Part shown: piece by piece, positions 5,501 through 62,636 of the stretch
How positions within the stretch are numbered: position 1 is the first letter of the stretch
Layout of the letters: each line of letters starts with the position of its first letter
From: a virus
Length of the DNA stretch: 64,000 bases
Reading direction: 5' to 3' (one strand)
Virus record (IMG/VR): IMGVR_UViG_3300044527_000952
Span: 29,058-93,057 of that record
Made by a program: the position numbers and the translations under genes
The notes under the pieces: model-generated
The model's input: the letters and a program-made list of their open reading frames with translations, nothing else
Database searches by the model: none
What the model was told of the DNA's origin: nothing

Positions 5501-5504
5501 GTTT

Positions 5505-6501: not shown

Positions 6502-6510
6502 GGAATTATT

Positions 6511-8782: not shown

Positions 8783-8783
8783 A

Positions 8784-9218: not shown

Positions 9219-9225
9219 ATACAAT

Positions 9226-9597: not shown

Positions 9598-9645
9598 TTT
9601 TTCAACCCGTCCTACTATGTATAAGTAGTGTTACAGAGGAACACT

Positions 9646-10341: not shown

Positions 10342-10365
10342 TAAAAAACACTCATAAATATCTTT

Positions 10366-10563
10366 ATGAGTGATGAGTTAAATGATTTAAGAAAATTGGC
10401 AGGTATCACCCTGCCAAATTCTTCTGATTATGGTGCAGCAATTAGTATGACTGCAACCCAAAAAGCACAAATTATGCGTGAAAAGAATATAAGACCTGGG
10501 GATCCTGCTTGGTTCAGACTATGGTTTGCCCAAACTCATCTAACAGGTGAAAAACCAATTTAG
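10366..10563 (+). CDS. small conserved phage protein
   Basis: LRKLAGI and IRPGDPAWF; TAAATA 5 nt upstream. Confidence 0.6.
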   Translation: MSDELNDLRKLAGITLPNSSDYGAAISMTATQKAQIMREKNIRPGDPAWFRLWFAQTHLTGEKPI

Positions 10564-10591
10564 ATAAATACTATATTATTATGGTATTTAC

Positions 10592-12091: not shown

Positions 12092-12117
12092 TCTAATTTT
12101 ACTCCATAAATAGTTTC

Positions 12118-13689
12118 ATGAATATGCAAAATGGTGTGCAACTCATTAAGAATCCTTATGAACTTACATCGTTCAAGGATGATAAACAATTACAAGACTT
12201 TTTAAAATGCTGTAATCCTGATACAGGTTATCTATATTTTATGGATAACTTTTTTATGATACAACACCCTACACAAGGTAGTATGTTATATCACCCATGG
12301 GCTTATCAAAAACGATTAATAGAAACATACCATAACTATCGTTTTAGTATATCTCTAATGCCACGCCAAAGTGGTAAATCTACAAGTGCAGCAGGTTATT
12401 TGCTATGGTATGCAATGTTTGTACCTGACAGTACGATTCTTATTGCTGCACATAAGTATGCAGGTTCGCAAGAAATAATGCAACGTATACGTTATGGTTA
12501 TGAGAATTGTCCACTACATATTAAAGCAGGTGTTGTAACTTATAACAAAGGATCACTAGACTTTGAAAATGGTAGTAGAATTATTAGTGCTACCACTACA
12601 GAAAATACAGGTCGTGGTCTTTCTATATCGTTATTATATCTTGATGAGTTTGCATTTGTTCGCCCAGGCATTGCTAAAGAATTTTGGACCTCTATCGCCC
12701 CTACTCTAGCAACAGGTGGTAAAGCAATTATAACAAGTACCCCAAATAGTGATGAAGATCAGTTTGCTATAATTTGGAAAGGTGCAAATAAAACACAGGA
12801 TGAATACGGTAATACTACTGAATTAGGTGTTAATGGTTTTAAAGCGTACAAGGCACATTGGAGCGAACAACCAGGTCGTGATGAACAATGGGCTGAATCT
12901 ATGAAAGCACAACTTGGTGATGAACGATTCAGGCGTGAAATTGGTTGTGAATTTGTTATCGCTGATGAAACATTGATCAATCCATTAATACTTACCACAC
13001 TAGAGGGTATGGAACCCATTGAGCGTATGGGTCAAGTACGTTGGTTTTCTAAACCACAAAAAGGTAATATCTATTGTGTTGGGCTAGATCCAAGCTTGGG
13101 TACAGGTAGCGATCCTGCTGCTATACAAATATTTGAAGCAAATACTACTAAACAAATTGGTGAATGGAAACATAATAGAACTACCATACCTGAACAAATT
13201 AAACTATTAGCCAAAATAAATGAATACATTGTTGATATAACCAATGAACCTAATAATTTATATTACAGTTTAGAAAATAATACTATTGGTGAAGCAGCAC
13301 TTATATCATTAGCAGAATATGGCGAAGAAAATATTAAAGGCACCATGCTAAGCGAACCTAAACAAGTAGGTGCAACTAGACGTTATAGAAAAGGGTTTAA
13401 TACCACTCAAAAAAGTAAGTTAGCAGCATGCAGTAAACTAAAAAACTTGATTGAAAGTGGTAAAATGTCGCTGAGAAGTAATGCACTAATCACAGAATTA
13501 AAGTCATTTGTAGCTGCTGAAGGTAGTTATGCTGCAAAAATAGGTGAAACTGATGACTTAGTAATGGCAACATTATTGGTTATACGTATTTTACAACATC
13601 TTCAAAACTATCATAGTGACCTAGATACGCACATTAGAGATCACAGCGAATACATTGAACCCATGCCATTTATAATGACATTAAGTTAA
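12118..13689 (+). CDS. terminase large subunit (T4 gp17-like)
   Basis: Walker A PRQSGKST, Walker B YLDEFAF, ITSTPN, RNase H-like GLDP...D and DDLVMA. Confidence 0.93.
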   Translation: MNMQNGVQLIKNPYELTSFKDDKQLQDFLKCCNPDTGYLYFMDNFFMIQHPTQGSMLYHPWAYQKRLIETYHNYRFSISLMPRQSGKSTSAAGYLLWYAMFVPDSTILIAAHKYAGSQEIMQRIRYGYENCPLHIKAGVVTYNKGSLDFENGSRIISATTTENTGRGLSISLLYLDEFAFVRPGIAKEFWTSIAPTLATGGKAIITSTPNSDEDQFAIIWKGANKTQDEYGNTTELGVNGFKAYKAHWSEQPGRDEQWAESMKAQLGDERFRREIGCEFVIADETLINPLILTTLEGMEPIERMGQVRWFSKPQKGNIYCVGLDPSLGTGSDPAAIQIFEANTTKQIGEWKHNRTTIPEQIKLLAKINEYIVDITNEPNNLYYSLENNTIGEAALISLAEYGEENIKGTMLSEPKQVGATRRYRKGFNTTQKSKLAACSKLKNLIESGKMSLRSNALITELKSFVAAEGSYAAKIGETDDLVMATLLVIRILQHLQNYHSDLDTHIRDHSEYIEPMPFIMTLS

Positions 13690-13725
13690 TTAAGCTGATA
13701 AATACACTATAAAAGTGGATTTATC

Positions 13726-21340: not shown

Positions 21341-21634
21341 ATGAAAATTGCAGTGTACACTCAATACTCCGAAAACTACGGTTCCGCTGAACTTCCCAAA
21401 TGGAAGTCAAAAGGTGGTGCAACCTATCTTATTAACAACCTTACTGTTGCTGACGTTTTCTTTTTCAAAGACGACCTCACACTTTTTACCAACAAATTTA
21501 ACTTTAGCAATGAGTTTGCTGAGGAGTGTGTTGTAAACTTCAACATTCTTGATGATGACGATATGTCATTCTGTAAAGAGTGGGAATTACCATTCTTAAA
21601 ACAGTTTACACGCAGTGACTTTGTTGCTGCTTGA
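21341..21634 (+). CDS. early hypothetical protein
   Basis: TQYSENYG...WKSKGG; own promoter. Confidence 0.65.
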   Translation: MKIAVYTQYSENYGSAELPKWKSKGGATYLINNLTVADVFFFKDDLTLFTNKFNFSNEFAEECVVNFNILDDDDMSFCKEWELPFLKQFTRSDFVAA

Positions 21635-21659
21635 CAGTAACTAAGTTTCAATCTATAAT
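21631..21659 (+). promoter_or_regulatory. sigma70 early promoter
   Basis: TTGACA-17-TATAAT, perfect consensus. Confidence 0.8.
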
Positions 21660-23512: not shown

Positions 23513-23541
23513 TTGACAGTATATCCAATTTTTACTATAAT
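23513..23541 (+). promoter_or_regulatory. sigma70 early promoter
   Basis: TTGACA-17-TATAAT. Confidence 0.8.
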
Positions 23542-34851: not shown

Positions 34852-36441
34852 ATGCTCAAAGATTTTTTTACTTATAGTAGGTTTACGCTATTTGTTGCAT
34901 TAGCCATTAGTGTTATTGCAGCGTATTATAGTATTATTGGATTGACTGCAATTTTTGCGGGTGCGTTTGTATCTATTGTTATTATGGGTACTGTGCTTGA
35001 AGTTGCCAAAGTAACTACTACAGTGTGGTTACATATGTATTGGAAGCGTTCAGGATGGGTCATTAAAACGTACCTTACTACCGCAGTCATAGCATTAGCG
35101 TTTCTTACAAGTATGGGTATCTTTGGGTATTTATCTAAAGCACATATTGACCAAGGCATACCAACAGGTGATGTTGCAGCACAGGTTGCGTTACTTGATG
35201 AAAAAATTAAAACAGAGCGTGATAATATTGAAACTGCAAGAAAAGCCTTGCAACAAATGGATAGTCAGGTTGATCAATTATTATCACGTGGTACTACTGA
35301 ACAAAATGCTGAGCGAGCAGTAGCTATACGTAGACAACAAGCTAAAGAACGTACCTCATTACAAAATGAAATTGCAAAATCACAGAATGTTATAAAAGAC
35401 TTAAATGAACAACGTGCGCCAATTGCTAGTCAGTTACGCCAAGTTGAAGCTGAAGTTGGACCTATTAAATATATTGCTGCATTAATATATGGAGATAATC
35501 CTGATGCAAACTTACTTGAACGTGCAGTACGTTGGGTAACTATATTAATTGTAGCGGTTTTTGACCCACTTGCTATTATATTAATTCTTGCTGCTAATAA
35601 TTCATTAAAATGGGAACGTGAAGATCGTATCAAAAAACGTAAGGAAGATGAACTACAATATGAAGCAGATGATGGCGCATTAACCCAAGACCAAATTGAT
35701 CAAGTTAAAGATTCATTAAAACAAAATGAATCAACTACTGATGAAATTGTAGAAGAAATTAAAGAAGAAGCTGTTGAAGAAAAACGTGCTGAACAGGTTT
35801 ATTTAACAAAGCCATGGGTCGATAAGGTCCCAGGCATACGTTTTCCTCACCAAGTTTATCAACCCCCACAATTTCCAATACCAACCAAAGATGAAGAATT
35901 TGTTGAGCCTATCAATACTACGGATGAAATAGTAGAACCTACGATTGATAGCGAAGAATTAACTGCTGATTCAGATGATTTTAAATTTAAACCTGTGCCT
36001 TTAACAGTAACACAAGCAGAGGAAGTTATTACAGATAATGTAACTAAACTTAAACCATTATTTAAATCAACCGATGAGTATGTTAATTATGATGGTAAAA
36101 GTATGAGTATGAATGCTTTAAAGGGTATACGCCCTGATTTGATACATCCTGCTAATAAGCCATGGCCCAACCAAATTAATTTTGGTGGTAAGTTTCCTGA
36201 TGAAGCATTAAGTGGTGATACCTTTATTCGTATTGACCGTGTACCACATATTGTTTACAAATTTAATGGTACTAAGTGGATTGTTGTAGATAAGCAACAA
36301 AACAGTACGTATTTGACTAACATCAATTACATTGATTATTTGATTGAATGTCTAAAAAATGGTAGTATTGACATAGAAATACTAACCGAAGTTGAGCGTG
36401 AAGAAATAGAAACACGTTTAGCAGTTGACAAGAAATCCTAA
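34852..36441 (+). CDS. membrane protein with coiled coil (DUF4407-like)
   Basis: TM helices, TSMGIFGYLSKAH, EVGPIKYIA, VFDPLA. Confidence 0.65.
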   Translation: MLKDFFTYSRFTLFVALAISVIAAYYSIIGLTAIFAGAFVSIVIMGTVLEVAKVTTTVWLHMYWKRSGWVIKTYLTTAVIALAFLTSMGIFGYLSKAHIDQGIPTGDVAAQVALLDEKIKTERDNIETARKALQQMDSQVDQLLSRGTTEQNAERAVAIRRQQAKERTSLQNEIAKSQNVIKDLNEQRAPIASQLRQVEAEVGPIKYIAALIYGDNPDANLLERAVRWVTILIVAVFDPLAIILILAANNSLKWEREDRIKKRKEDELQYEADDGALTQDQIDQVKDSLKQNESTTDEIVEEIKEEAVEEKRAEQVYLTKPWVDKVPGIRFPHQVYQPPQFPIPTKDEEFVEPINTTDEIVEPTIDSEELTADSDDFKFKPVPLTVTQAEEVITDNVTKLKPLFKSTDEYVNYDGKSMSMNALKGIRPDLIHPANKPWPNQINFGGKFPDEALSGDTFIRIDRVPHIVYKFNGTKWIVVDKQQNSTYLTNINYIDYLIECLKNGSIDIEILTEVEREEIETRLAVDKKS

Positions 36442-36453
36442 TTCATCTATAAT
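36425..36453 (+). promoter_or_regulatory. sigma70 promoter
   Basis: TTGACA-agaaatcctaattcatc-TATAAT. Confidence 0.8.
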
Positions 36454-38288: not shown

Positions 38289-39545
38289 ATGGGTGAAGTA
38301 TATCATTTTCAAGAATGTAGTTTTTGTGGTAAACACAAGAACGTTGTCAAAAAACTGATAGTAGGTGAAGGTACTGCAATATGTAGTGATTGTGTTGAAT
38401 TATGTAATGATTTACTTAAGGATGAAGAACCACTTGAGGAAGATGCACCACGTAAGATAAGTTTTTATGCTGATGATATTAAATCATTTTTAGACAATTA
38501 TATTATTGGACAAGATGCTGCAAAAACTTTAATCAGTGTGGCAGTATCTAATCATTACAAGCGTGTCACAGCAGATACCAAAGAGTTAGAAATTCAAAAA
38601 GCCAATGTACTCATCCTTGGACCAAGTGGAGGTGGTAAGACACTAATGGCTAAAACAGTAGCCAAATATCTAGATGTACCATTTGTTATTGCAGATGCTA
38701 CATCCTTAACTGAAGCAGGTTATGTTGGTGATGATGTTGAAAGTATGATACAACGGTTAGTAGCTGCTGCTGATGGTGATATTGAGCGAGCAGAGCGTGG
38801 TATTATTTTTGTGGATGAAGTAGACAAAATCGCACGTAAAAGTGAAAGTGCAAGTATTACACGTGATGTTAGTGGTGAAGGTGTGCAACAAGCATTGCTT
38901 AAAATTGTAGAAGGTACCATTTGTCGTGTACCACAACAAGGCAAACGCAAACACCCAACCAACGATATGCTAGAAGTCGATACTAAAAACATTCTATTCA
39001 TTTCAGGTGGTGCTTTTGTAGGATTATCAGATATTATTTCACGTCGATTACACGGAAATAGTATTGGGTTTTCTGCACAGGTTGGTGGCACCGTATCCAT
39101 GGATGATATTTTGGCACAAGTTACACCTGATGATTTAACTAAGTATGGTATGATTCCTGAATTTACAGGACGTTTTACATGTCGTGTATCTATCAATGAG
39201 TTAACAAAAGACCAATTGGTTCAAATTTTGACTAAAGTTAAAAATAACTTTATTGAACAATATCAGTATTTACTAAGTTTAGATGAAATAGAGTTAACTT
39301 TTACTGATGCTGCTATTGAACAAATTGCAGAAAACTGTTTAAATTTAAAAACAGGTGCACGTGGGTTACAAAGTGAAGTTGAACGTGTGTTGTTACAAGT
39401 TATGTTTAATAGTAAACACCTTAAAGGTAAGAAAATAGAAATTGATAAAATGCACGTAGATCACCCTAATTTGCTAAATAAACATTGGGAATCCGCAGTA
39501 AAAGATTCTTACTTAGGATCCATTTTAAAAAAAGGGAAAAAATGA
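38289..39545 (+). CDS. clpX: ATP-dependent Clp protease ATPase subunit
   Basis: CSFCGK zinc finger, GPSGGGKT, TEAGYVG, RDVSGEGVQQALLK, IGF loop, TGARGL. Confidence 0.95.
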   Translation: MGEVYHFQECSFCGKHKNVVKKLIVGEGTAICSDCVELCNDLLKDEEPLEEDAPRKISFYADDIKSFLDNYIIGQDAAKTLISVAVSNHYKRVTADTKELEIQKANVLILGPSGGGKTLMAKTVAKYLDVPFVIADATSLTEAGYVGDDVESMIQRLVAAADGDIERAERGIIFVDEVDKIARKSESASITRDVSGEGVQQALLKIVEGTICRVPQQGKRKHPTNDMLEVDTKNILFISGGAFVGLSDIISRRLHGNSIGFSAQVGGTVSMDDILAQVTPDDLTKYGMIPEFTGRFTCRVSINELTKDQLVQILTKVKNNFIEQYQYLLSLDEIELTFTDAAIEQIAENCLNLKTGARGLQSEVERVLLQVMFNSKHLKGKKIEIDKMHVDHPNLLNKHWESAVKDSYLGSILKKGKK

Positions 39546-47254: not shown

Positions 47255-47982
47255 TGTTTGATTTTTTAAAACGTAGAGAGTTAGTGTTTTCATGTAAAAT
47301 AACTGATACATTTTTATACAACTCTTTACCACCAAAATTAAGTTCTCAATGCTTACCAACTTGGTATAAAGAATTAAAACCACATTATGAATTAGAAAAT
47401 AAAGTGGGTTTAATTTATAAAACAGGAACAGTAAGACATTGTGCAGGTATTAAAAAAACATTAACTAGTGGGGTAATTGTCCCCATGTGGTCTGATTTAC
47501 TATTACAGATTAATCCCGATGGTACTTTTTTATACCAATTTTCCGATGAAGCGTCTGAAATACATACACATGATGGAAGACAATATGGAAATTTATTCAA
47601 AGATTCTATATTTTTAAAATTAACTTCACCTTGGGCATGTGAAGCTAACAGACCAATGAATTATTATTTGACACACCCAACTTATCATATTGGCTATGAA
47701 ACGGAGTTTCAGGTGTTGCCTGGGTATATTGATTTTTATTACACTAACGCACTTAACCCATTTATCGTATGTAAAATTAAACCTGAACCCTATCAATTTA
47801 TGATCCCTGGGGGTAGCCCTCTTTACCAACTTTTACCTGTTCATGATCATCGTGTAAAAATTAAAACCCAAGTTGTTTCTCTTGAAAAATTTAAATCATT
47901 AACTGTTCATAATCGCTTTTCTTTTGTAAAAACACATGATAGGTTTGTAAAGTATAAAAATATGATTTATGGAAAAAAATGA
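47254..47982 (+). CDS. conserved phage protein (dUTPase-like beta fold, DUF6065-like)
   Basis: PTWYK, TVRHC.G, SPW, PG.ID, GSPL.Q. Confidence 0.5.
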   Translation: MFDFLKRRELVFSCKITDTFLYNSLPPKLSSQCLPTWYKELKPHYELENKVGLIYKTGTVRHCAGIKKTLTSGVIVPMWSDLLLQINPDGTFLYQFSDEASEIHTHDGRQYGNLFKDSIFLKLTSPWACEANRPMNYYLTHPTYHIGYETEFQVLPGYIDFYYTNALNPFIVCKIKPEPYQFMIPGGSPLYQLLPVHDHRVKIKTQVVSLEKFKSLTVHNRFSFVKTHDRFVKYKNMIYGKK

Positions 47983-48761
47983 ACACTAAAGTATACAAGC
48001 AAGTTAAAAAATTTATTGATCTTTATGGGTTACCTAAAGAAATTGGTGTTACAGGTTGGATTTCAGAAATTAGTGAATGGACTTATCATGATAAAATAAT
48101 AGGTCAGTCTAATGAAGAATCTAAAGGTTGGGTTTATGTTCAACAAAAAAGCAGTAGTTTAAATGAATTAGATTACTACAATTATTGGGATACAGACTCA
48201 GTTTATGCCATAGCAGTATCAGTGTGTGACAATCGCACAAGTGATACGCAACTTTACTTTACCATACATGATAAAGATTTCTTCCTTGATTTATGTAACG
48301 AAGATGCAGATGGTAAAGGGTGGGAGTGGATTAGTGATGTTGATTTAGAAGAAATTGTTAGAGAACTTAATGGATACACTGTTGACCCAAATGATGAGAA
48401 ATACAATGATTTTAATCTTGATTCACAAGATTTTCTATGGAGTAACTGTGAAGAAAACATTATAGAAACTATCTACAGTCTACCTTATAATGCTTGTATC
48501 ATTACGTGGAATAATGGAGCATCTATTACGCTTACAATTAAAAAAGATAATATTACAGCAAAAGTAGTAAATCCACCAACAAAACATCATGTCTTTGTAG
48601 AATTACCAAGCATGGCTTATTTTAATGATATGGTTACTTGGTTACAAGGTAGTAAGTTATCTTATGAGTTGTTATGTAAACCTGATACAAATCATACCGT
48701 AGGGATTAGTTTTGAAAATGATGAACATGCAACTATGTTTAGTTTGAAATGGGCTAGATAA
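47979..48761 (+). CDS. protein with C-terminal F-x-L-K-W family domain
   Basis: ends ISFENDEHATMFSLKWAR. Confidence 0.6.
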   Translation: MNTKVYKQVKKFIDLYGLPKEIGVTGWISEISEWTYHDKIIGQSNEESKGWVYVQQKSSSLNELDYYNYWDTDSVYAIAVSVCDNRTSDTQLYFTIHDKDFFLDLCNEDADGKGWEWISDVDLEEIVRELNGYTVDPNDEKYNDFNLDSQDFLWSNCEENIIETIYSLPYNACIITWNNGASITLTIKKDNITAKVVNPPTKHHVFVELPSMAYFNDMVTWLQGSKLSYELLCKPDTNHTVGISFENDEHATMFSLKWAR

Positions 48762-48924: not shown

Positions 48925-49134
48925 ATGTACGAAATCAACAAATCAGGTATTACCTACATGCACACTGCAACAATTACTGTTCAGAACAAAGATAATATTC
49001 TAGAAATTTTAGCATGGTTAAAACAATATTGTGTTGGTCAATATACTTGGAAACAAGGACACAAGAATAACGAACGTGTTGTATCGTTCCAACAAGAATC
49101 TGATTTAGTCAATTTCAGCTTGTATTGGATTTGA
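48925..49134 (+). CDS. dispersed member of the F-x-L-x-W family
   Basis: ILAWLKQYC...VSFQQESDLVNFSLYWI; promoter 48894-48922. Confidence 0.6.
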   Translation: MYEINKSGITYMHTATITVQNKDNILEILAWLKQYCVGQYTWKQGHKNNERVVSFQQESDLVNFSLYWI

Positions 49135-53057: not shown

Positions 53058-53588
53058 ATGAAAGTTAAAATATCAAAATACCTTAAAGCAGGTAGAAAAA
53101 TTGCGGTGCATATTGAGAATTGTGATATATGGAGTTTAGACACTACCTTAGCGTATATCATTTATCCTGCTTTGTTAGAATTACGCATGGTTAAACATGG
53201 TGTTCCTGCTGACTTTGCTCAGGTTGGTGGTGAAGATTGGCATGATCAAGGCTGCTTTGATTTTTACAAAGAAACACACGATTGGGCATTCAATGAAAAG
53301 ATTAAAGAATGGGACGTAATTCTCGATAAAATGATATGGTCATTTGGGCAATTAATATGGGATAATGAAGAATCCTTCCATTATGGTAAAGTACCTAGGT
53401 TTAAATTTGTTAAAACAGGTCAAACCATGTTAAATCCTATAACCAATCAAGTTGAACAATTAAGTCAGATGGTTGATCCTGATCCTACTAGTCATTATTT
53501 TGACGCAGCAGGATACACATTATATCAAGATCGTATCCAAGAAGGATTAGATTTGTTTGCAAAATATTATCGTTCACTATGGGATTAA
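53058..53588 (+). CDS. conserved T4-like phage protein
   Basis: DIWSLD.TLA.II.P, WD.ILDKMIWSF, G..LF.KYY..LWD. Confidence 0.65.
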   Translation: MKVKISKYLKAGRKIAVHIENCDIWSLDTTLAYIIYPALLELRMVKHGVPADFAQVGGEDWHDQGCFDFYKETHDWAFNEKIKEWDVILDKMIWSFGQLIWDNEESFHYGKVPRFKFVKTGQTMLNPITNQVEQLSQMVDPDPTSHYFDAAGYTLYQDRIQEGLDLFAKYYRSLWD

Positions 53589-53589
53589 C

Positions 53590-54093
53590 GTGAAAGAAAA
53601 ATTTATAAAACTTTATGCAGATATTGCTAAACGAGTATCGGAATTAAGTTATGCTGTACGGTTGAAAGTTGGTGCGATTATTGTTAAAGATGATCGTATC
53701 ATCAGTATTGGTTATAATGGTATGCCTAGTGGATGGGACAATGGCTGTGAATATACTGAATTTATGCCTATCAACGACCCTACAGCAAAATTTCAAGACT
53801 ATCCTTTTACAGGTAATTTTTGGATTAATGGTCACAGCGTAGAAAGAAGATACAGACTAAAAACCAAACCTGAAGTATTGCATGCTGAATCAAATGCTTT
53901 GGCAAAATTAGCTAAGTCTAACGAGAGTGGGGATGGTGCTGATTTGTTTATTACACACAGTCCTTGTATCGATTGCGCTAAACTAATTTACCAATCAGGT
54001 ATTCGTCGTGTGTATTTTGGTACACACTATAGGGACGATGCAGGGATAAAATTTCTTGAAAAAAGTGGAGTAGAAGTTATTTCACATGGATAA
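53590..54093 (+). CDS. dCMP deaminase
   Basis: KVGAIIV, GYNG, HAESNA, SPCIDC. Confidence 0.92.
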   Translation: MKEKFIKLYADIAKRVSELSYAVRLKVGAIIVKDDRIISIGYNGMPSGWDNGCEYTEFMPINDPTAKFQDYPFTGNFWINGHSVERRYRLKTKPEVLHAESNALAKLAKSNESGDGADLFITHSPCIDCAKLIYQSGIRRVYFGTHYRDDAGIKFLEKSGVEVISHG

Positions 54094-54713
54094 TCATACC
54101 TTAACAGTTACCATACCATTTGGTAAGTTAGGAGATATTTTTGATTGGTGTCAACATAATTGCACAGGCGAATGGCATTTCGCTAATTTAGAAGTAGGTG
54201 GACAAGATGCAGGACATTATGTTGTAAGTTTTAGTAATGAAAATGATTGTAATTTTTTCGCAATGAGATGGATGTAGGTCAACGTTTTTTAATTTTTTCA
54301 GGGGTGCCTAATATTTCTACTCATGAACACTGTTGTTTTATCATAGATTTTACATGGTGGGTAGAAAATGATGCAGAAATTACAAGTTGGTTATTAAAAA
54401 ATATTGGGGTAAATAATTTTAAATTAGATGGTATTGTTCTACAATTTACCACAGCAGAACTACAATCATTTTTTTTGCTTACTTGGAGTTAATTATGATT
54501 ATTATTGTTGATTCTTTTGATTGCCAACAAGCAATGAACGATTTAGGTATTGACCAAGATAGCAATGAATTTGTACCTGCTTTTGAAAAAAGACATGATT
54601 GTTTTGTACACCATTACGTGTTATCTTGCGGAATTAAACAATTTAATTGTATTGCGTATATCGAGTTTCATAATGAAGCAAGTTATAACTTATTTGCGTT
54701 GAAATACATGTAG
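54086..54713 (+). CDS. three LRWS-family ORFs (54086-54277, 54268-54492, 54495-54713)
   Basis: C-termini FFAMRWM, FFLLTWS, LFALKYM. Confidence 0.65.
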
Positions 54714-54721
54714 CGAAATAC

Positions 54722-54750
54722 TTGACAACAATTTTTTAATATTTTATAAT
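54722..54750 (+). promoter_or_regulatory. sigma70 promoter upstream of the main array
   Basis: TTGACA-17-TATAAT, perfect consensus. Confidence 0.8.
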
Positions 54751-54762
54751 AGGAATGAATAA

Positions 54763-54912
54763 ATGTACAAATATCAACTTTGGGTACGACTTAACGACTA
54801 TCAAACCGCTAATACCATCATTTGGGCAAATAATGACTATGAAGCTAAAATGCTTGGTGAGGCACAATATGGAGTAGGCAATGTCCTCAACTACACAAGA
54901 ATTGACGATTGA
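54763..54912 (+). CDS. 49-aa protein (not in ORF track)
   Basis: MYKYQLWVRL...EAKMLGEAQYG; AGGA RBS after promoter. Confidence 0.6.
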   Translation: MYKYQLWVRLNDYQTANTIIWANNDYEAKMLGEAQYGVGNVLNYTRIDD

Positions 54913-55105
54913 AACTAGAGAAGTTGACAAAGAAGGTTGCTACGATTGGGTAGAAACTTATGCATTATTGCCTAAAATAACTATTTCAGGTAAAATGCTA
55001 TGGTTTAAGAAATGCTACAAACGTAGAGTGCGTATTGTTTGGAAACAACCATATGATATTGATTACATTATGGAGTATGCTACTGCCTTAGATTTATTGA
55101 AGTAA
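54881..55105 (+). CDS. hypothetical protein
   Basis: W...YALLPK.TISGK.LWFKK.Y pattern. Confidence 0.55.
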   Translation: MSSTTQELTIETREVDKEGCYDWVETYALLPKITISGKMLWFKKCYKRRVRIVWKQPYDIDYIMEYATALDLLK

Positions 55106-55107
55106 CC

Positions 55108-58100
55108 ATGAATGTTAAGCGATATAGTGCGCATACATGGGGATGGGATACTAATTGTAATGGGTGGTATCTAGCATATGTCAATAGTGGTAATTATGAA
55201 GAAGTCTTAGATTGGTTATACGATAATGTAGAAGGGTGTGAAAAACATTGTCGTTGGCGTTTTTTCCATGCGCATACTGAGGTGAAATTTAGACATGAAC
55301 GTGATTTTGTATGGTTTAATTTAGTGTGGCGATAATGGCATATTTTGTTCAAAATAATGAATTGAAACATGTTTTATATAAGTTGTGGGAAGATTCAGGA
55401 CAAACAAGTGTACCAAAATTGGGTACTGATTCAAGGATTCAGTATTGTGATTGGTATTATGATAATTATGGTATCAACCTTGTTTATAATGGACATGAGT
55501 TAAAAGGTATGATTTTTAAAAGTGCGGAACATTATACTTGGTTTATTTTAAATTATTCTTAATATGCTATTAACTAGAACTGAATTTATAAAATATGCTA
55601 ATAAACATTGGCCTAATATAGGTACGGATAATACTAGCCCATTATGGATACCTGAAGTAAGTTTAGGTGAACAATGTCAATATTTTTTGTTTATTCCTGT
55701 GATGCAACGTTGGAACAAAAGTGATTTTTGGGAATGGTCAGATAAATTATTGATTGGGAAAACACGATGTTTCATGCGTGGTAATGATGGTGAAATATGG
55801 GGATTTACCAATGAAGATGATATTAATATGTTTTTGCTGAGGTGGTCATGAAAGATTGTATCCAAGATTTTATTGTAGCTTGGAAGCATTATGATGGGCT
55901 TTCTGCTCCAACTATTACAAGGTGGAGCAATAGGTTAGCTGAGGGTGGCTATTATAGTGTTACATTGACAGGTCAAAGTCTTTTAGTTGATTGGCAGGAT
56001 GTTCATCGATGGTGTGAGGATGAGTTTGGCGAAAGACACTATACTTGGACTGGTAACGTATTTTGGTTCGAAAATGAATGTGATGCTAATTGGTTTGCCC
56101 TGAGGTGGTCATGAGTAAAAGAGATTGGTGTAATATTCCAGTAAAGGTTCCATATCGTAGCACAGGTCAATGGCGTGATCTGCGTATATGGCTGATGGAA
56201 AATGTCAACGACATGGACTATGATGCTGCTGGTGTAGATTTACAGGATTATGATAAGAGGGTCTTTTATTTTGCTAGATCAAAGGATGCTATATGGTTCG
56301 CACTGAAATGGAGTTAACCTATCACAAGATAGTCAGTTATGAAGGGCCAGACGCTCATCCTTTATACAATGCTATTAAGCACAGCATTGAATGGGTAGGA
56401 AAAAAGCATCAAGTCACGAGTCCTATGGATTTGAAATACTTGACTGAAGAAGAATTTGGTATTAAAATTGGAGCAGTGGAATACCTAAGGAACACATCAG
56501 GTAATTATAGATATAGGGTAAGTTTCCGTGATGAACAACATTATACTTGGTTTATATTGAGGTGGTCATGATTGGTTTTTATTTAGAAAATTTTCTAATA
56601 AATTGTCCCATATATTGGCAAAACTTTGTAAAGGCTAATCAGGATAATCCTGATCATGACATAGCCTTAAGAATACTTAATAGAAAACTTAAGCCCTTTA
56701 AAGCAAGATATGTTCCAGCAGATTATCTAGACCAAGATAAAGTCATATTTGAAGATGAGCATAGCTTAAATTGGTTTATATTAAGATGGGCGTAGTAAGA
56801 CCACAAGATTTTGAACATCGTATAGAAATTGAACCTATACTGACTAAAAGTCATGAAGATGCCATTCATGAATGGTGTAGGCGACATTTAGGTAGATACG
56901 GTGAAACTTGGTATACCTATTACAGCCACCAAAGTCATAAAATCATAGTATGTTTTCAGCATAGCCAAGATGCTGTTTGGTTTACTTTGAGGTGGTCATA
57001 ATGTATACTCTTAACTTAGCTGAATTACCCGCTACCAAGTCTGTAGAATTTTTAGTATGGATTTTTACTAATCAAATTGGAAATTATATGTCTCTGCTAG
57101 AATTAATAACCAAAGACGATAAATGGCATTATAAAACAAGTATTCCTTTTGAATGCACTGAACAAGAAGCAATGTTGGTAATTTTGAGGTGGTCGTGATA
57201 CATTGGCAATACACTGGGGTAGCACCGTGGGAAGATATCGTACGGTGGTGCTATGATAATCTGCAGGGTGAATGGTCTGCCGCTTGGGAAACCATACACT
57301 TCCGTAGTGAGAGTGATTATGTTTGGTTCATGTTGAGGTGGAGTTAATGACTTATATTAATGATTTTAATATTATAATTAATATCCAGGTATGGTATAGA
57401 CATAATCGCTTGGTTAATTTAGCCAACGATGATCGGGTTTGGCGTGAGGATTTTCGGGCTTGGTTGAAGGAACAAGGTTGTGAGATCGATCCAGGGCCTG
57501 GTAATAATAGGTTGTTGAGAAACGGTTTAGGCTTCGCACCCGGCTATGATCAATTACGATTTGAAGATGATCGGGATGCTACTGTGTTTATATTGAGGTG
57601 GTCATGAAAATTCAGCGAATACATGAATCAAGCGATGGTCAAAAGATATATGTGTTAGGCTCGGTTACTACACTTTCATTTCGTCAATATATGGATCAAT
57701 ACTCAGATTCAACTGTATGGAGTAGAGAACATCAGGCACATCATGCTATTAAACGACTCATAAAATTGGAATACGGTGAATTATATCAATGGTTATGTAG
57801 TCAAGATTGTCAAACAACCAATTGGATTGATGATAAAATATTTTCACTACCATATCAATTCAGTGCTCAAATCGATTTATTTGATTGGGGTATAGGGTTC
57901 AGGTCAAATGATCCCAAAGAAACTTTGTTTATATTGAAGTGGCAATGAATTATAATAGTAAATTTGATCAATATCATATGAAAATTACTGATAATTATAT
58001 TACGGTAAATCGTAATAAACTCGATATTGTTGAAGCTATAAAGTGGGTTAAAAAGAATTGCCCACACTATATAACAAATCAATATCACGGTAATTATCAT

Positions 58101-58830
58101 GGCAATGATCTTATTGATTTCTTTTTTTTAGACAAGCCAAAAGCTAAAGAAGAGATGACAATGTTTATTTTAAAATGGGCATAATGATTAATTTTGATAG
58201 TCCATTTAAAAAAGAATGGGAAGAACAATTAAAATGGTTGGATGAAACTATACAAAGAAATTATACCAATGATGGTAGACCATTCAATAAAAGTACAGTG
58301 GCTCAATTTTTAGAATGGCGCAGTATGGATAAAGAAACATGGAAGTTTAGAATACAAGGATTGCCTCCTACACTTATAGTTACTTTTAAAGACCCTGAAC
58401 ATGAATTCTTATATAATTTAAGATGGAGATAAATTGGCTATTGATGTAATCATTGAAGGAAAAGAGTTATCACAATATATGGACATTGTGCGTGAACTAC
58501 GTGCCTCAGGATTAAATCAAGGAGAACATTTTGATTTTAAATACATTCCATCAGTATATGATTACGAAAAATATAGAATTACTCCAAAAAAAGTTATCTT
58601 TACATTTTATGATGAACAATACTCTACATTATTTCGTTTAAAATATGAATCCTAAATATCCGTATATTGCATCTATTTGTCCTCCTGATGGTGGTAAACG
58701 TGGTTGGTATGATGTAATATCGTGGTGCCATGAAAAGATAGGTGCCACACATTCTCAATATGTAGGTGAAGGTGTTTTTGCATTTGAAAATGAAAGTGAT
58801 TATATGATGTTTTTGTTGAGGTGGTCATGA
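55108..58830 (+). CDS. contiguous run of 16 LRWS-family ORFs: 55108-55335, 55335-55562, 55564-55851, 55848-56114, 56111-56317, 56308-56571, 56568-56795, 56786-57001, 57001-57198, 57195-57347, 57347-57607, 57604-57948, 57945-58184, 58184-58432, 58434-58655, 58645-58830
   Basis: all end in a motif like WF-x-L-R/K-W-S and are stop/start coupled; 57195-57347 (50 aa) is missing from the ORF track. Confidence 0.8.
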
Positions 58831-59090
58831 ATATATATCAAGGTGTTACATTTAATAAAAAAATTGACGAAGCACTAGAACGTGCGGGTGGTAGGTTATT
58901 TCTAGCAAATTTAGATCGCCCTGCGTTAGAACAATTTGTACGTGAAATATTATTAGATGTTACAGAAGAAATTATTGATTGGAAAAATGCAAAAGATGAA
59001 AGTATGAATGATCTTTATTGGGATGGTTATGAACAAGGTATGGTAGATGCGCTTGTTGCTGTAAGATTATGGGGGCAAGACGTAGATTGA
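58827..59090 (+). CDS. hypothetical protein (possibly distant MNERI-like)
   Basis: starts at a junction repeat; ALERAG...LEQFVREIL. Confidence 0.55.
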   Translation: MNIYQGVTFNKKIDEALERAGGRLFLANLDRPALEQFVREILLDVTEEIIDWKNAKDESMNDLYWDGYEQGMVDALVAVRLWGQDVD

Positions 59091-59326
59091 ATACTAAGGA
59101 ATGTCAATGTTTTGAATGTCTCAAACCAAATTTTATCAAGTTTGTCAGTACCTTTATCGTATGTGACACATGTGGTAACAAACGTTGCCCACACGCTACT
59201 GATCATAGATTAGGATGCACCAACCGCAATGACCCAGGACAACTTGGCAGCAGATACGGTGTCTACCCACACCCATCTATAGAGTTATTAGATTTTTTGG
59301 ATGCTGCCAATGAAGATAAAGAATAA
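59069..59326 (+). CDS. Cys-rich zinc-binding protein
   Basis: CQCFEC, CDTCGNKRCPHATDH, C...N.PGQ.GS.Y. Confidence 0.65.
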   Translation: MGARRRLNTKECQCFECLKPNFIKFVSTFIVCDTCGNKRCPHATDHRLGCTNRNDPGQLGSRYGVYPHPSIELLDFLDAANEDKE

Positions 59327-60991
59327 TCATTTGCCACGTAATGGACAATATGAAATATTTACTACTCAAGGACGCACTTATTGTTTTGATGATCCATCGT
59401 TAGAAGTCATGCAAGCACCTAATGAAATGTTTGAATGGTTAAGAAATATGCCAAGAGAACTATGTAGACCACTAGATCATACTAATGTTGCATTTTATCT
59501 AACTCCTGAAATGTATACCTTGTGGAAAATTACTTGGTTATGATATAATGATGAGAAGACTTAAAAAAGAAATTTGGCCTTATAAAATTACAGTGAATTA
59601 TCCTGCTGATTCTCAAATTATTGATATTGAATTATGGTTAATTGAAAAGTTTGGTGAAAGAAGAAATAAGTGGAATGTAGTTTATGGTTTTTATAAGTCT
59701 GATTTTTACTTTAAAGAAGAATCTATGCTAACATTTTTTGCAATGCGATGGAACTAACATATAGTCAAATAGTATCTTATTTGAGGTGGTCATGAAATAT
59801 ATACAGGATTCTGACCTGTGGTATACACTACAGGTATATTTTAAAAATAATATCATGCCCAACTTGGTGAATGATGATAAAGTTTGGGCACATGAATTTA
59901 GACGATGGCTTAAAGAACAAGGTGCTGAAATTGAGCATTTAATGAACCAACGATTAGTGCGTAATAGTTTAGGTATAGCACCCCACTATGATAAATTGGT
60001 CTTTGAGGATGAACAAAGGTTAGCTTGGTTTGTGTTGAGGTGGTCATAAAATTAAAAAATTAATTAAAATTAACGGTAAACACTATAATGACTACATGCC
60101 ATGTGGCTTAAACATTATAGAAAAACTTTGGTGGTGGTTGGTTCCAGGTGTTCTTGTCAAAGTAAAATGGCCCAAGGGTATGATCACAGTAGATCATAAT
60201 GACCCACGTTGGTTTGATTGTGGTGGTGCAGTATGGGTAACCTACGAAAGCACTGATCCTAATGATCATTATCGCCCATGGATGGAAGCAAATATTGGTA
60301 AACAAAAGTGGGATTGGGATTGGGGATTTGTAGGCAATGATGTTTCAGATAACTGTTTAACCATTAAAGTTAGACAAAATAAGGCAGAGTATGCTACAAT
60401 GATGATTATGATGTGGGGATAGTATGCGAATAAAACCTTTTCAATCACGATATGCAGTAACTTGGGATGAATATCCTACAGGTATTTCCAACCCTAATGG
60501 TAAAGTGAAGATGGTAAATTGGTGTATCAAAAACTTAAAATTAGATTATATTACTTTGGGGTTTTACGCATATGACCCAAATGGGTTTTACGAACATAAT
60601 CCACCAAATGCTGTAAATTCTTGGATGTTAATTAATTTATCAAATGATATTTTGATAACAACAGAAGACGATGTTCATTTAAAATTATTAGACCATGGAT
60701 CACTAAAAGCAATTATACTTGATGATTACAGCAAAGCATGCGAATTAGCAGACTATGTTGATCAAATTCATACATTTAATATAATTAAAAGATACTGACA
60801 TGAGAACCGCACTTTTTCAGCGTGAATTCACCGTAAAGGAGGTAGGTCCTATTAGTGATTTTTTAAAACAATGTAGGAAAATGATGGGACAACCTTCACC
60901 TCAAACATGGGTGTTTCATGGAAATTATCATAAAATTGTTTTATATATTTATGACGATAAGTATGCCACATGGTTTAGTTTAAGGTATTGA
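59310..60991 (+). CDS. distal array ORFs: 59310-59543, 59548-59757, 59748-59795 (15 aa), 59792-60049, 60096-60422, 60424-60798, 60800-60991
   Basis: C-termini LWKITWL, FFAMRWN, YLRWS, WFVLRWS, MMIMMWG, (non-member), WFSLRY. Confidence 0.65.
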
Positions 60992-61392: not shown

Positions 61393-61932
61393 ATGAAAAA
61401 CTTTTACGCATATGTTAAAAACTTATTTACTGCAGATCAATGTCAAGAAATAGTTGAAATATATGAAAATAATAAAGAACATACTACTATAGATGCTCCT
61501 GCTCATTGGAAAAATTGTTCAACTATTATTTTACCTGATGAGTTATTAGGTGTGTATTCCAATATCATTAAGTATAATGTAACATCAATAAATCAAGATT
61601 TTTTTGGCTTTGACTTATTTCAACATCAATTTCTTGTTTATCATTTAAATACGTATACAGGAAACCAAAACTACAATCTTCATGTTGATGCTATGGCAGG
61701 ATCACCTAAAGATATGAAATTGACCGCTATTGTTAATTTATCATGTGAACCATATATAGGTGGTGAGTTTACATTTCCTCCGTTTGGTGAAGAAGGTAAT
61801 ATACCTGAATTCGACAGTCAGGTAGGATGTATGTTAGTATTCCCATCTTTTTTTGCGCATAAAGTAAATAATGTAACACAAGGTACTAGGCGTACACTTG
61901 TTACATGGTTTGAAGGACCAAATTGGAAATAA
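61393..61932 (+). CDS. 2OG-Fe(II) oxygenase (PKHD/P4H-like)
   Basis: HVD, KLT..V.LS, Y.GGEF, FPSF..HKV..VT.G.R..LV.W. Confidence 0.85.
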   Translation: MKNFYAYVKNLFTADQCQEIVEIYENNKEHTTIDAPAHWKNCSTIILPDELLGVYSNIIKYNVTSINQDFFGFDLFQHQFLVYHLNTYTGNQNYNLHVDAMAGSPKDMKLTAIVNLSCEPYIGGEFTFPPFGEEGNIPEFDSQVGCMLVFPSFFAHKVNNVTQGTRRTLVTWFEGPNWK

Positions 61933-61949
61933 TTTTTAAAGGAGAAAAT

Positions 61950-62636
61950 ATGTTTTCACAATCAATTACATACCCAACAGCTAGTGAAATTAATTCAGCA
62001 ATGGCAGGTGTGTATAAAAATATGTCACTTGCTGTATTAGTTAGTATGCTTGTTTCATATTATGTAGGTACTACCCCTGCATTGCTTCAGTTCTTTTTTA
62101 CAGGTTTTGTCAAGTGGATTGTTATTTTTGCACCATTAGTCGCAGTGTTTGCTGTGACCTATGGATTATCACAAGTACAATCTAAAGAAGTTGCACTATT
62201 GATGCTACTAGGTTTTGCTGCACTAATGGGTTTAAGTTTTGCTACAATCTTTGCAGTATACCAAATGGGTAGTATCTTTACTGCATTTATGGGTGCAGCA
62301 GTTTTATTTGGAACGATGAGTTTTTATGGTTACTTTACTAAAAAGAATCTTGATAGTATTGGTAAGTTTCTGTTTGTTGGGCTTATTGCTATTGTTATCG
62401 CCTCTATTATTAATATCTTTATTGGTAGCAGTGTTGCTGCTATGGTTATTAGTGCACTTGCTATTATTATTTTTCTTGGTTTAACTGCGTATGACACACA
62501 GAAAATTCGTGAAATGATTATGGAAGAAGGTGCAACTGCTAGAGTAGAATCATTAGGTGCGTTAACACTTTACCTTGATTTTATCAATATTTTCTTGAAC
62601 TTATTACAGTTGTTTGGTTTGAAGAAAGACGATTAA
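61950..62636 (+). CDS. Bax inhibitor-1/YccA family membrane protein
   Basis: about 7 TM; GLTAYDTQKI, GALTLYLDFINIF. Confidence 0.92.
   Translation: MFSQSITYPTASEINSAMAGVYKNMSLAVLVSMLVSYYVGTTPALLQFFFTGFVKWIVIFAPLVAVFAVTYGLSQVQSKEVALLMLLGFAALMGLSFATIFAVYQMGSIFTAFMGAAVLFGTMSFYGYFTKKNLDSIGKFLFVGLIAIVIASIINIFIGSSVAAMVISALAIIIFLGLTAYDTQKIREMIMEEGATARVESLGALTLYLDFINIFLNLLQLFGLKKDD

What the first reader, a model, noticed from the sequence alone, without database searches (positions are those of the whole stretch)
54086..60991. Tandem array of ~24 hypervariable small paralogs with a shared C-terminal F-x-L-[RK]-W-S motif
Seen: about 7 kb of 50-115 aa ORFs, nearly all stop/start coupled. Their N-termini are barely alignable, but they share a helix with W-[CL] (e.g. 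DWCQHN, RWCEDE, EWCRRH, SWCHEK) and the ending F-x-x-E-x-D/H-x-x-[WM]-F-x-L-[RK]-W-[SA] (FENECDANWFALRWS, FRDEQHYTWFILRWS, FQHSQDAVWFTLRWS, FENESDYMMFLLRWS). Inference: the 'V-x-F-x-x-x-E-D-A + helix' pattern recalls the RNP1/helix-2 end of an RRM/ferredoxin-like domain. These may be one small fold diversified by duplication and shuffling. A constant C-terminal anchor with variable bodies fits a library of adaptors or inhibitors, e.g. anti-defence factors or substrate adaptors for one common partner. I do not recognise a described family.
Basis: partly seen in the sequence, partly recalled or inferred. Interest (0 to 1): 0.9.

Follow-up and report, generated by a model that had tools for sequence, protein, structure and literature searches.

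The report
Chained array of LRW-tail phage mini-proteins
A freshwater giant phage carries about 24 different versions of one tiny, unnamed protein in a row; each gene's last codons (Leu-Arg-Trp) also form the next gene's ribosome-binding site, and what the proteins do is still unknown.

Summary
Window 54086-60991 is a same-strand chain of 30 small ORFs. A profile built only from other contigs recognises 20 of them (E <= 1e-3). Three more are borderline and two match by motif only. Two further members lie at 47979-48761 and 48925-49134.

Two AlphaFold models from separate alignments (pLDDT 88.5 and 85.4) give the same beta-alpha-beta-beta-alpha core. F-x-L-[RK]-W is its last helix. The family has no Pfam, PHROG, NCBIfam or PDB match, yet it is large: 730 representative clusters and more than 110 viral contigs. 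It also occurs in the cultured jumbo phages Phosso (29 matches), Atu_ph07 (5) and PA5oct (3).

The copies are not hypervariable. They fall into about 40 old subfamilies under purifying selection (dN/dS 0.17), and their order differs between phages.

The constant ending is partly an RNA signal. Arg is spelled AGG in 70% of endings against 8% elsewhere, which gives TTGAGGTGGTCATGA: a Shine-Dalgarno sequence plus a stop/start overlap. Related lake phages gain, lose and swap whole genes at these joints.

The idea of a shared docking tag is not supported. Function is untested; I infer early accessory proteins that bind host factors.

This scan has already reported the same family and junction on at least eight other genomes.

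The parts
53557..54093 (+). dCMP deaminase, upstream flank; its end overlaps the first array gene
   Evidence: Pfam PF00383, E 1.3e-20. In PA5oct, dCMP deaminase gp207 lies close to family members gp209 and gp210, two and three genes away.
54086..54277 (+). family member, 63 aa, ends FAMRWM
   Evidence: external HMM E 2.9e-12
54268..54492 (+). family member, 74 aa, ends FLLTWS; its ATG lies inside the AGA-TGG (Arg-Trp) codons of the previous gene
   Evidence: external HMM E 7.5e-6; junction seen
54483..54713 (+). borderline member, ends FALKYM; probable ATG at 54495
   Evidence: external HMM E 0.013; seed HMM 2.3e-6, which is circular
54722..54750 (+). perfect sigma-70 consensus promoter (TTGACA, 17 nt, TATAAT) inside the array
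   Evidence: 12 of 12 matches. It is one of 4 such sites in the window against 0.35 expected; none of 100 shuffles reached 4.
54763..54912 (+). non-family small ORF, 49 aa, first gene after the promoter
   Evidence: external HMM E 5.6; no Pfam hit; AGGA at -11
54881..55105 (+). non-family small ORF, 74 aa
   Evidence: external HMM E 6.9; no Pfam family reached its cut-off
55108..55335 (+). family member, 75 aa, ends FNLVWR
   Evidence: E 2.2e-8
55326..55562 (+). family member, ends FILNYS; probable ATG at 55335 (TAATG overlap)
   Evidence: E 2.5e-6
55564..55851 (+). family member, 95 aa, ends FLLRWS, followed by the canonical junction
   Evidence: E 2.4e-7; junction CTGAGGTGGTCATGA
55842..56114 (+). 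family member (real start ATG 55848, 88 aa): two extra N-terminal helices plus the core; canonical junction at its end
   Evidence: E 1e-14; AF2 with its own orthologues, pLDDT 85.4
56090..56317 (+). family member (start ATG 56111, 68 aa), ends FALKWS
   Evidence: E 1.3e-14; orthologue P0004 at 88% identity
56293..56571 (+). family member; probable start ATG 56308, inside the AAA-TGG codons of the previous gene
   Evidence: E 8.3e-11
56547..56795 (+). family member (start ATG 56568), ends FILRWA
   Evidence: E 1.2e-7
56771..57001 (+). family member (start ATG 56786, inside AGA-TGG), 71 aa
   Evidence: E 2.4e-17; the same 71-aa protein was called independently in the public set as P0001
56977..57198 (+). 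family member (start ATG 57001), ends VILRWS
   Evidence: E 3.7e-4
57189..57347 (+). smallest member, about 50 aa, essentially the bare core; GTG start in place of the usual ATG
   Evidence: E 5e-16
57323..57607 (+). family member (start ATG 57347); 51% identical to 59786-60049, the only recent-looking duplicate pair
   Evidence: E 1.2e-9
57598..57948 (+). motif-only member, 116 aa, ends FILKWQ
   Evidence: external HMM E 2.3; seed HMM 9e-9, circular; in-frame 117- and 126-nt deletion variants in lake runs
57939..58184 (+). family member (start ATG 57945), ends FILKWA
   Evidence: E 4e-9
58175..58432 (+). family member, ends YNLRWR; exactly this gene is missing in a related phage
   Evidence: E 4.3e-4; joint 58185 to 58434 in run X19, side 215
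58434..58655 (+). borderline member, ends FRLKYES
   Evidence: E 0.017
58645..58830 (+). family member, 61 aa, the modelled reference: strand 7-10, helix 18-32, strands 37-41 and 44-47, helix 50-60
   Evidence: E 1.3e-16; AF2 pLDDT 88.5, pTM 0.71
58821..59543 (+). block of three inserted ORFs (58821-59090; 59069-59326, Cys-rich; 59301-59543, ending KITWL, a possible degenerate member)
   Evidence: no Pfam family reached its cut-off; HMM E 0.62 for 59301; the whole block is skipped in a relative (joint 58828 to 59541)
59548..59757 (+). family member, 69 aa, ends FAMRWN
   Evidence: E 1.1e-17
59748..59795 (+). 15-codon mini-ORF: the first 11 codons resemble the start of gene 56308 and are joined directly to the LRWS junction
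   Evidence: read directly
59786..60049 (+). family member (start ATG 59792), ends FVLRWS
   Evidence: E 2.1e-8
60096..60422 (+). divergent member, 108 aa, ends MIMMWG
   Evidence: E 3.6e-4
60424..60798 (+). borderline ORF, 124 aa
   Evidence: E 0.02; no Pfam hit
60800..60991 (+). last member, 63 aa, ends FSLRY
   Evidence: E 2e-7
48925..49134 (+). stand-alone member outside the array, ends FSLYWI, without the junction repeat
   Evidence: E 1.9e-9
47979..48761 (+). 260-aa protein whose last ~60 residues are the family domain (ends FSLKWAR)
   Evidence: E 1.4e-6; six unnamed full-length homologues at 40-97% identity
51427..52272 (+). metallophosphoesterase near the array; the same kind of neighbour recurs beside family members elsewhere
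   Evidence: Pfam PF00149, E 9.9e-13; clusters with neighbours in 13 loci; PA5oct gp236 lies next to member gp237

Best explanation
The region is an accessory-gene array in a fragment of an uncultured freshwater jumbo phage. Its nearest cultured relatives by terminase are PA5oct, Phosso and Atu_ph07.

Protein family (shown). The array encodes about 24 members of one undescribed, so far phage-only family. Each protein ends in a ~50-residue beta-alpha-beta-beta-alpha domain. N-terminal extensions vary. The conserved residues are the ones expected to form the hydrophobic core and the helix caps: W-C in helix 1, W in strand 2, F-x-F in strand 3, E-x-D-A...F-x-L-[RK]-W in helix 2. The rest of the surface differs between about 40 old subfamilies.

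Junction (shown at sequence level). The last codons are dual-use. Written ..G AGG TGG NNA TGA they supply a Shine-Dalgarno sequence (GAGGTG) five bases before an ATG that overlaps the stop. In a minor form, A|ATG|G, the [RK]-Trp codons contain the next start codon itself. The genes are thus chained for coupled translation. The same 15-nt joint is where related phages insert, delete and replace whole genes, so any member stays expressed wherever it lands.

Function (inferred, not shown). The proteins are made early from host-type promoters. Each subfamily binds a different host or competitor factor, serving host take-over or counter-defence, rather than all docking to one partner through the tail.

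My odds: about 0.85 for the architecture and the junction, about 0.4 for the functional class.
For: Family and fold:
- External-only HMM hits.
- 730 representative clusters at E <= 1e-3, nearly all 50-110 aa with the motif at the very end.
- Two independent AF2 models with the same core.
- Dozens of uncharacterised phage proteins in BFVD at Foldseek probability 0.9-1.0.

Old subfamilies:
- Orthologues in other contigs are closer than paralogues in the array.
- Louvain clustering gives about 40 groups of three or more members.
- Median dN/dS is 0.17 in 29 orthologue pairs.

Dual-use junction:
- After dropping one ascertained junction per locus, Arg is AGG in 70% of endings vs 8% elsewhere in the same genes. 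Leu is TTG 64% vs 22%, Ser is TCA 71% vs 19%, the stop is TGA in 74%, and an ATGA overlap is present in 63%.
- Other genes of this phage use GAGGT-type Shine-Dalgarno sequences at -9 to -12.
- Of 475 endings, 321 are the ATGA type and 31 have the ATG inside the [RK]-W codons.
- In Phosso, ATGA overlaps persist but no GAGG is embedded, and there Arg and Trp vary: AIT, AMS, AWS, RFG.

Shuffling at the joints:
- The exact junction occurs in at least 118 IMG/VR contigs.
- 588 members were found in 110 of them, in scrambled subfamily order.
- Contigs of relatives in lake runs differ from the window by whole-gene deletions or replacements. Breakpoints lie within a few bases of gene ends: 55854/56111, 58185/58434, 57942/60049, 59301/59551 and 58828/59541.
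- The mini-ORF at 59748 fuses a gene start directly to the joint.

Early, non-structural role:
- A 12/12 sigma-70 consensus promoter sits in the array.
- PA5oct depends on host RNA polymerase (PMC7318152).
- The three PA5oct homologues lack the virion mass-spectrometry tag that several neighbouring genes carry.
- Copy number ranges from 3 to 29 matches per genome.
- Charge is mixed, with median pI 6.0.
Against: - No experiment or homology bears on function. The 'binder of diverse targets' role rests only on the pattern of conservation and on analogy with other small early phage proteins.
- No RNA data were obtained for the array.
- Burial of F/L/W is inferred from helix periodicity and model confidence. 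I had no coordinates to measure it.
- Loci were fetched with the junction as bait. The codon statistics are corrected for this only roughly, although the window alone shows the same bias (AGG 8 of 11 vs 8 of 58).
- The read laying joints were taken at 85% likeness in metagenomes, so they compare related phages, not one population.
- The strong purifying selection and the very old subfamilies would also fit housekeeping roles inside the phage's own cycle.
Confidence: 0.6

Rival explanations
1. The invariant C-terminal F-x-L-R-W-S is a free docking peptide or degron that brings variable bodies to one common partner. One candidate is the phage's own ClpX/ClpP/ClpS machinery encoded about 15 kb upstream.
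For: - The domain ends within 0-1 residues of the protein's C-terminus in 504 of 594 member ORFs.
- The window encodes ClpX.
- ClpX homologues are present in 4 of 5 genomes that carry the family.
Against: - The motif is the second half of a confidently modelled helix (pLDDT block means 86-94). Its hydrophobic residues are the most conserved core positions.
- Arg and Trp are free to vary in Phosso.
- The extreme AGG/TTG/TCA codon bias points to an RNA-level constraint.
- A 97%-complete 338-kb genome has 7 members and no ClpX.
- Co-occurrence with ClpX elsewhere is what shared ancestry alone would give.
Confidence: 0.1
2. The proteins are small nucleic-acid-binding or ligand-binding regulators of the RRM/KH/ACT type. 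They would act on phage or host RNA, or on nucleotide-metabolism enzymes encoded next door.
For: - Arrays sit beside dCMP deaminase, metallophosphoesterase, helicase and exoribonuclease genes.
- The open sheet face often carries an aromatic residue and basic residues (profile positions 50, 37 and 52).
Against: - The fourth strand is absent.
- There is no RNP1/RNP2, GXXG or ACT ligand motif.
- No Pfam hit.
- Net charge ranges from -7 to +5 with median -1.4.
Confidence: 0.12
3. The proteins work inside the phage's own programme, for example as assembly chaperones or regulators of phage enzymes. The array is then a stable, conserved operon rather than an arms-race toolkit.
For: - Strong purifying selection.
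- Subfamilies shared by many phages.
- The array is nearly identical in lake metagenomes from 2017 to 2025: 18 runs hold at least half of its sampled words.
Against: - Gene content and order differ widely between related phages.
- Copy number ranges from 3 to 29 matches per genome.
- The terminase-related Vibrio phage 2.275.O has none.
- The PA5oct homologues are not virion proteins.
Confidence: 0.15

Closest known systems
PeSL (promoter-early stem-loop) cassettes in hyperplastic regions of T4-type phages (Arbiol et al. 2010, PMC2839356; Comeau et al. 2014, PMC4122927)
   Same: Short conserved DNA motifs flank small accessory ORFs of unknown function. The ORFs lie between conserved replication and nucleotide-metabolism genes of T4-related phages. 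The motifs carry expression signals and serve as the joints at which whole ORFs are inserted, lost or swapped.
   Different: Here the joint is 15 nt of coding sequence (the end of one protein, a Shine-Dalgarno sequence and the next start). It is not an intergenic promoter plus terminator hairpin. It wires translation, not transcription. All cassettes belong to one protein family.
Translational coupling in polycistronic operons (ATGA or TAATG stop/start overlaps with the Shine-Dalgarno sequence inside the upstream gene)
   Same: 63-68% of junctions are ATGA overlaps with GAGG five bases upstream. This matches the Shine-Dalgarno type and spacing of other genes in this phage.
   Different: The Shine-Dalgarno sequence is locked into two of the most conserved residues of a protein fold (Arg-Trp). 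It recurs identically across hundreds of non-orthologous genes and phages.
Lineage-specific expansions of small domains in jumbo phages, e.g. about 35 zinc-ribbon copies in Bacillus phage G (Iyer et al. 2021, PMC7824862)
   Same: Dozens of copies of one small domain in a giant phage, function only conjectured. The window phage belongs with that paper's group that contains Atu_ph07.
   Different: The fold is different and has no metal site. In the passages I searched (terms for paralogues, lineage-specific expansions, tandem, PA5oct and Atu_ph07), that paper does not mention this family. The members here are old subfamilies shared between phages, not a recent expansion in one genome.
Ferredoxin-like / ACT / RRM two-layer alpha-beta sandwiches
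   Different: The final strand is missing. There is no sequence similarity and none of the functional motifs. The similarity is at the level of a common arrangement.

Membership tests
RRM (RNA recognition motif) | Profile match to the Pfam RRM models | tested here: not met
   No Pfam family at E <= 1 apart from chance rows for 10 members, and none shared by more than one of 65 members at E <= 0.1.
RRM (RNA recognition motif) | RNP1 on strand 3 ([RK]-G-[FY]-[GA]-[FY]-[ILV]-x-[FY]) and RNP2 on strand 1 | tested here: not met
   The strand-3 consensus is [FIV]-x-F-x-[ND]-E. Strand 1 is poorly conserved.
RRM (RNA recognition motif) | Four-stranded sheet, b-a-b-b-a-b | tested here: not met
   Both models end with helix 2 at the C-terminus. 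The protein stops 0-1 residues after the profile's end in 504 of 594 member ORFs.
ACT domain | Fold match standing clearly above background, plus a ligand-binding loop between strand 1 and helix 1 | tested here: inconclusive
PeSL mobile regulatory cassettes | Intergenic early promoter plus stem-loop terminator flanking each ORF | tested here: not met
   Junctions are coding overlaps. Only one strong promoter lies in the array. Promoter-like sites are at the chance level (62 found vs 60.3 expected), and none of the 12 terminator-like sites in the scanned 11 kb flanks an array gene.
PeSL mobile regulatory cassettes | The conserved motif coincides with insertion, deletion and replacement breakpoints between related phages | tested here: met
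   Breakpoints lie within a few bases of gene ends in contigs of relatives. Subfamily order is scrambled between contigs.
Translationally coupled operon | Stop/start overlap with a Shine-Dalgarno sequence in the upstream coding region | tested here: met
   ATGA overlap in 63-68% of junctions. AGG is used 70% vs 8% elsewhere. The Shine-Dalgarno type matches other genes of the phage.
Translationally coupled operon | Downstream translation depends on upstream translation | not testable with these tools
   Needs a reporter assay.
Any named protein family (Pfam, PHROGs, NCBIfam) | Profile match above threshold | tested here: not met
   including the PA5oct and Phosso members.

The most novel reading that the evidence does not exclude
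The LRW-tail family is a large, self-wiring library of phage counter-defence or host-takeover inhibitors. Each of the roughly 40 or more subfamilies would neutralise a different bacterial factor. The coding junction would act like an integron-style attachment and expression site, letting giant phages exchange ready-to-express inhibitor genes.
Probability: 0.25. Interest if true: 0.85.

Novelty: new variant of a known kind. Interest (0 to 1): 0.6.

Why it matters
The family is large (730 clusters at 50% identity) and appears in hundreds of large-phage contigs, yet no database names it.

If its members are inhibitors of host functions or defences, it is a large untapped set of small binders on a 50-residue scaffold.

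The junction shows how a conserved protein ending, a ribosome-binding site and a recombination joint can be one and the same 15 bases. That would explain how accessory genes can be shuffled between phages and stay expressed.

It is also a warning for motif hunters: part of the 'invariant' LRW is imposed by the RNA.

Members in the cultured phages PA5oct, Atu_ph07 and Phosso make the questions testable at the bench.

Tried and rejected
DNA and protein similarity to cultured phages:
- Megablast of the array against cultured phages: no match.
- tblastn of three members against cultured phages: no match. Only profile searches reach Phosso, Atu_ph07 and PA5oct.

Fetching related loci:
- With P0157 it found nothing.

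Fused or named relatives:
- Search for longer fused forms: none, which is weak evidence.
- The 260-aa fusion protein has only unnamed homologues.
- Cluster look-up of ten hits gave no informative name, only 'hypothetical protein'.

Structure and sequence libraries:
- PDB sequence profile search: nothing below E 0.2.
- Foldseek against PDB for both models: nothing at E <= 0.001.
- ESM Atlas returned only unnamed viral clusters at scores of 0.90 or less.

Other checks:
- Homodimer prediction: no verdict, score 0.00. This is not evidence either way.
- Sequencing runs: no RNA holder listed. The two 'RNA?' runs are probably DNA.
- The PA5oct paper's supplements are not held, so the timing of gp209, gp210 and gp237 could not be read.
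- A literature search for screens of PA5oct early proteins found nothing relevant.

Ideas considered and dropped:
- A metal site. The Cys in W-C is replaced by Leu, Ala or Ile in 40% of members, so it is probably a buried small residue.
- A DNA mimic. Charges are mixed.
- 'Not real genes'. Rejected on dN/dS 0.17, the confident folds and the external HMM hits.

Full report
**Where the window comes from.**
- The window is bases 29058-93057 of a 93-kb IMG/VR viral contig that CheckV rates 26% complete. It is therefore a piece of a giant phage.
- It encodes a T4-type large terminase, ATP-dependent DNA ligase, ClpX, dCMP deaminase, a 2OG-Fe(II) oxygenase and a Bax1-I family membrane protein.
- The terminase is closest (about 51% identity) to the jumbo phages PA5oct, Phosso and Atu_ph07.
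- The array's DNA is present at half or more of its sampled words in 18 lake or freshwater metagenome runs dated 2017-2025. This is a recurrent freshwater phage.

**The observation.**
- From 54086 to 60991 there are 30 same-strand small ORFs, almost all overlapping or abutting.
- To avoid circularity I built a profile from 577 members found on other contigs only and scored every ORF of the 93-kb contig.
- Twenty array ORFs score E 1e-17 to 4e-4. Three are borderline (0.013-0.02). Two carry only the motif.
- Two more members lie outside the array: 48925-49134, and the C-terminus of the 260-aa ORF 47979-48761.
- Nothing else in the contig scores better than E 0.47.
- Five ORFs are unrelated inserts or relics: 54763, 54881, 58821, 59069 and the 15-codon ORF at 59748.

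**The fold.**
- AlphaFold2 on the 61-aa member 58645-58830, using the window's paralogues as the alignment, gives pLDDT 88.5. The elements are strand 7-10, helix 18-32, strands 37-41 and 44-47, helix 50-60.
- A second model, of 55848-56111, used only that subfamily's own orthologues from other samples. It gives pLDDT 85.4 with the same core preceded by two extra helices.
It is one fold.
- Across 706 distinct members the most conserved positions are W 98% and C 60%/L 21% in helix 1, G 61% after helix 1, and W 68% in strand 2. In strand 3, F is 43% and 94%. In helix 2 the values are E 59%, D 73%, A 46%, F 95%, L 94%, R 80%/K 15% and W 100%.
- These are hydrophobic-core and helix-cap positions. 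The remaining surface is free to vary.
- Net charge is mixed (median pI 6.0) and tryptophan makes up 5.9% of residues.

**Is it a known family?**
- No hit in Pfam, PHROGs, NCBIfam or PDB sequences, for the window's members, for 65 mixed members, or for the PA5oct and Phosso members.
- Foldseek against PDB finds nothing at E <= 0.001 for either model.
- The predicted-viral-structure library returns dozens of 'uncharacterized protein, uncultured Caudovirales phage' entries at probability 0.9-1.0.
- The comparative survey of jumbo phages (PMC7824862) does not mention the family in the passages I searched.

**How widespread is it?**
- A profile search of 1.84 billion representative proteins finds 730 at E <= 1e-3. 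Nearly all are 50-110 aa with the match running to the last residue.
- Many of those gene calls start M-V-[YFH]-I-E-V. That is the previous gene's W-F-x-L-R-W read in another frame, so relatives are arrayed in the same way.
- The exact DNA junction occurs in at least 118 IMG/VR contigs of 4-338 kb.
- The profile finds 588 members in 110 of those loci, up to 17 per fetched piece, on one strand in all but one locus.
- Profile searches of whole genomes give 29 matches in Sinorhizobium phage Phosso, 5 in Atu_ph07, 3 in PA5oct and 5-28 in four uncultured genomes. They give none in Vibrio phage 2.275.O or in one 266-kb contig.
- In PA5oct the members sit close to dCMP deaminase and next to a metallophosphoesterase, the same kinds of genes that lie near the window's array. 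The array thus looks like an expansion at a conserved accessory-gene site.

**Not hypervariable.**
- Each window member has a closer full-length relative in another sample (44-100% identity) than any paralogue in its own array (27-51%, usually over the C-terminal part only). The only recent-looking pair is 57323 and 59786.
- Community clustering gives about 40 subfamilies with three or more members. They recur across contigs in different orders and combinations.
- Twenty-nine orthologue pairs from different contigs have median dN/dS 0.17.

**The junction.**
- About nine window junctions read TTGAGGTGGTCATGA or a near variant.
- Across the loci I dropped one junction per locus to allow for how they were fetched. 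The Arg of the motif is then AGG in 70% of cases against 8% for Arg elsewhere in the same genes.
- Likewise Leu is TTG 64% against 22%, Ser is TCA 71% against 19%, the stop is TGA in 74%, and 63% of junctions form an ATGA overlap.
- The window alone shows the same pattern.
- Other genes of this phage use GAGGT-type ribosome-binding sites 9-12 bases before the start. That is the spacing in the junction.
- A minor junction type (31 of 475) places the next ATG inside the [RK]-Trp codons (A|ATG|G). Examples are at 54268, 56308 and 56786.
- In Phosso the family keeps F-K-L-x-hydrophobic-x-stop and frequent ATGA overlaps but has no embedded GAGG. There the Arg and Trp positions vary freely.
- The near-invariance of Arg-Trp in the freshwater clade is therefore partly imposed by the RNA signal.

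**Shuffling at the joint.**
- Contigs of related phages in other lake samples align to the window in blocks. Whole genes are deleted or replaced between blocks.
- Breakpoints lie at 55854/56111, 58185/58434, 57942/60049, 59301/59551 and 58828/59541, each within a few bases of a gene end. In 56306/57972 only the left breakpoint lies at a gene boundary; the match resumes about 30 nt inside gene 57939-58184.
- The 15-codon ORF at 59748 is a gene start fused directly to the joint.
- Fused two-domain proteins in the public set look like read-through of a junction.

**Expression.**
- A perfect TTGACA-17-TATAAT promoter lies at 54722-54750. It is one of four in the window where 0.35 are expected.
- The relative PA5oct relies on host RNA polymerase (PMC7318152).
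- The PA5oct homologues are not among its virion proteins.
- I found no RNA data for this phage.

**What the proteins do is not shown.**
- The pattern is a rigid conserved core, variable surfaces and extensions, many old subfamilies, presence or absence varying between related phages, and a likely early non-structural status.
- From this pattern I infer small binders of diverse host or competitor factors, at odds of about 0.4.
- The single-partner anchor model is unlikely, for the reasons given above and because a near-complete genome has the family but no ClpX.
- An RNA- or ligand-binding role of the RRM/ACT kind cannot be excluded but has no specific support.

**Earlier notes of this scan.**
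- A same-genome note on the junction (seen) prompted my codon analysis.
- After reaching my reading I found that follow-up agents had reported the same family and dual-use junction on at least eight other genomes. Their conclusions agree with mine.
  - the members in named cultured phages and their conserved neighbours;
  - the Phosso contrast, which separates protein constraint from RNA constraint;
  - the second junction type;
  - the dN/dS estimate;
  - the external-only membership test.

Noticed in passing
window 21631-21659, 23513-23541, 36425-36453, 54722-54750 (+): Four perfect sigma-70 consensus promoters (TTGACA, 16-18 nt, TATAAT), all on the + strand. 0.35 are expected by chance, and none of 100 shuffles reached four. 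This suggests host-polymerase early promoters spread through the genome.
   Followed up: partly
window 57651-57778: Two lake runs carry in-frame 117- and 126-nt deletions inside the 116-aa gene 57598-57948. The N-terminal extension of a member can therefore shrink without loss of the frame.
   Followed up: no
window 59069-59326: An 85-aa Cys-rich ORF (several C-x-x-C pairs, zinc-ribbon-like) sits inside the array among non-family inserts. The block 58830-59541 is absent from a related phage contig.
   Followed up: partly
window 47979-48761: A 260-aa, very acidic protein (pI 4.5) carries the family domain at its C-terminus. It has six unnamed full-length homologues (40-97% identity). Its N-terminal ~200 residues match nothing.
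   Followed up: partly
window 38289-39545 and genomes W01-W03, G001: The phage ClpX is shared with PA5oct, Atu_ph07, Phosso and a 333-kb uncultured genome (43-60% identity). The copy in that uncultured genome shows one in-frame TAA.
   Followed up: partly
window 61393-62636: Directly after the array lie a 2OG-Fe(II) oxygenase (PF13640) and a Bax1-I / BI-1 family membrane protein (PF01027, E 1e-51). The latter is an unusual gene for a phage.
   Followed up: no
L141 (Phosso 1-15000): In Phosso the family members are interspersed with tRNA genes and a truncated-looking histidyl-tRNA synthetase annotation. They are chained by ATGA overlaps without an embedded Shine-Dalgarno sequence.
   Followed up: partly
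window 54086-60991 in public runs: The array is held almost unchanged (71-100% of sampled words) in 18 lake or freshwater metagenome runs from many studies between 2017 and 2025. The phage is widespread and its array is stable over years.
   Followed up: partly
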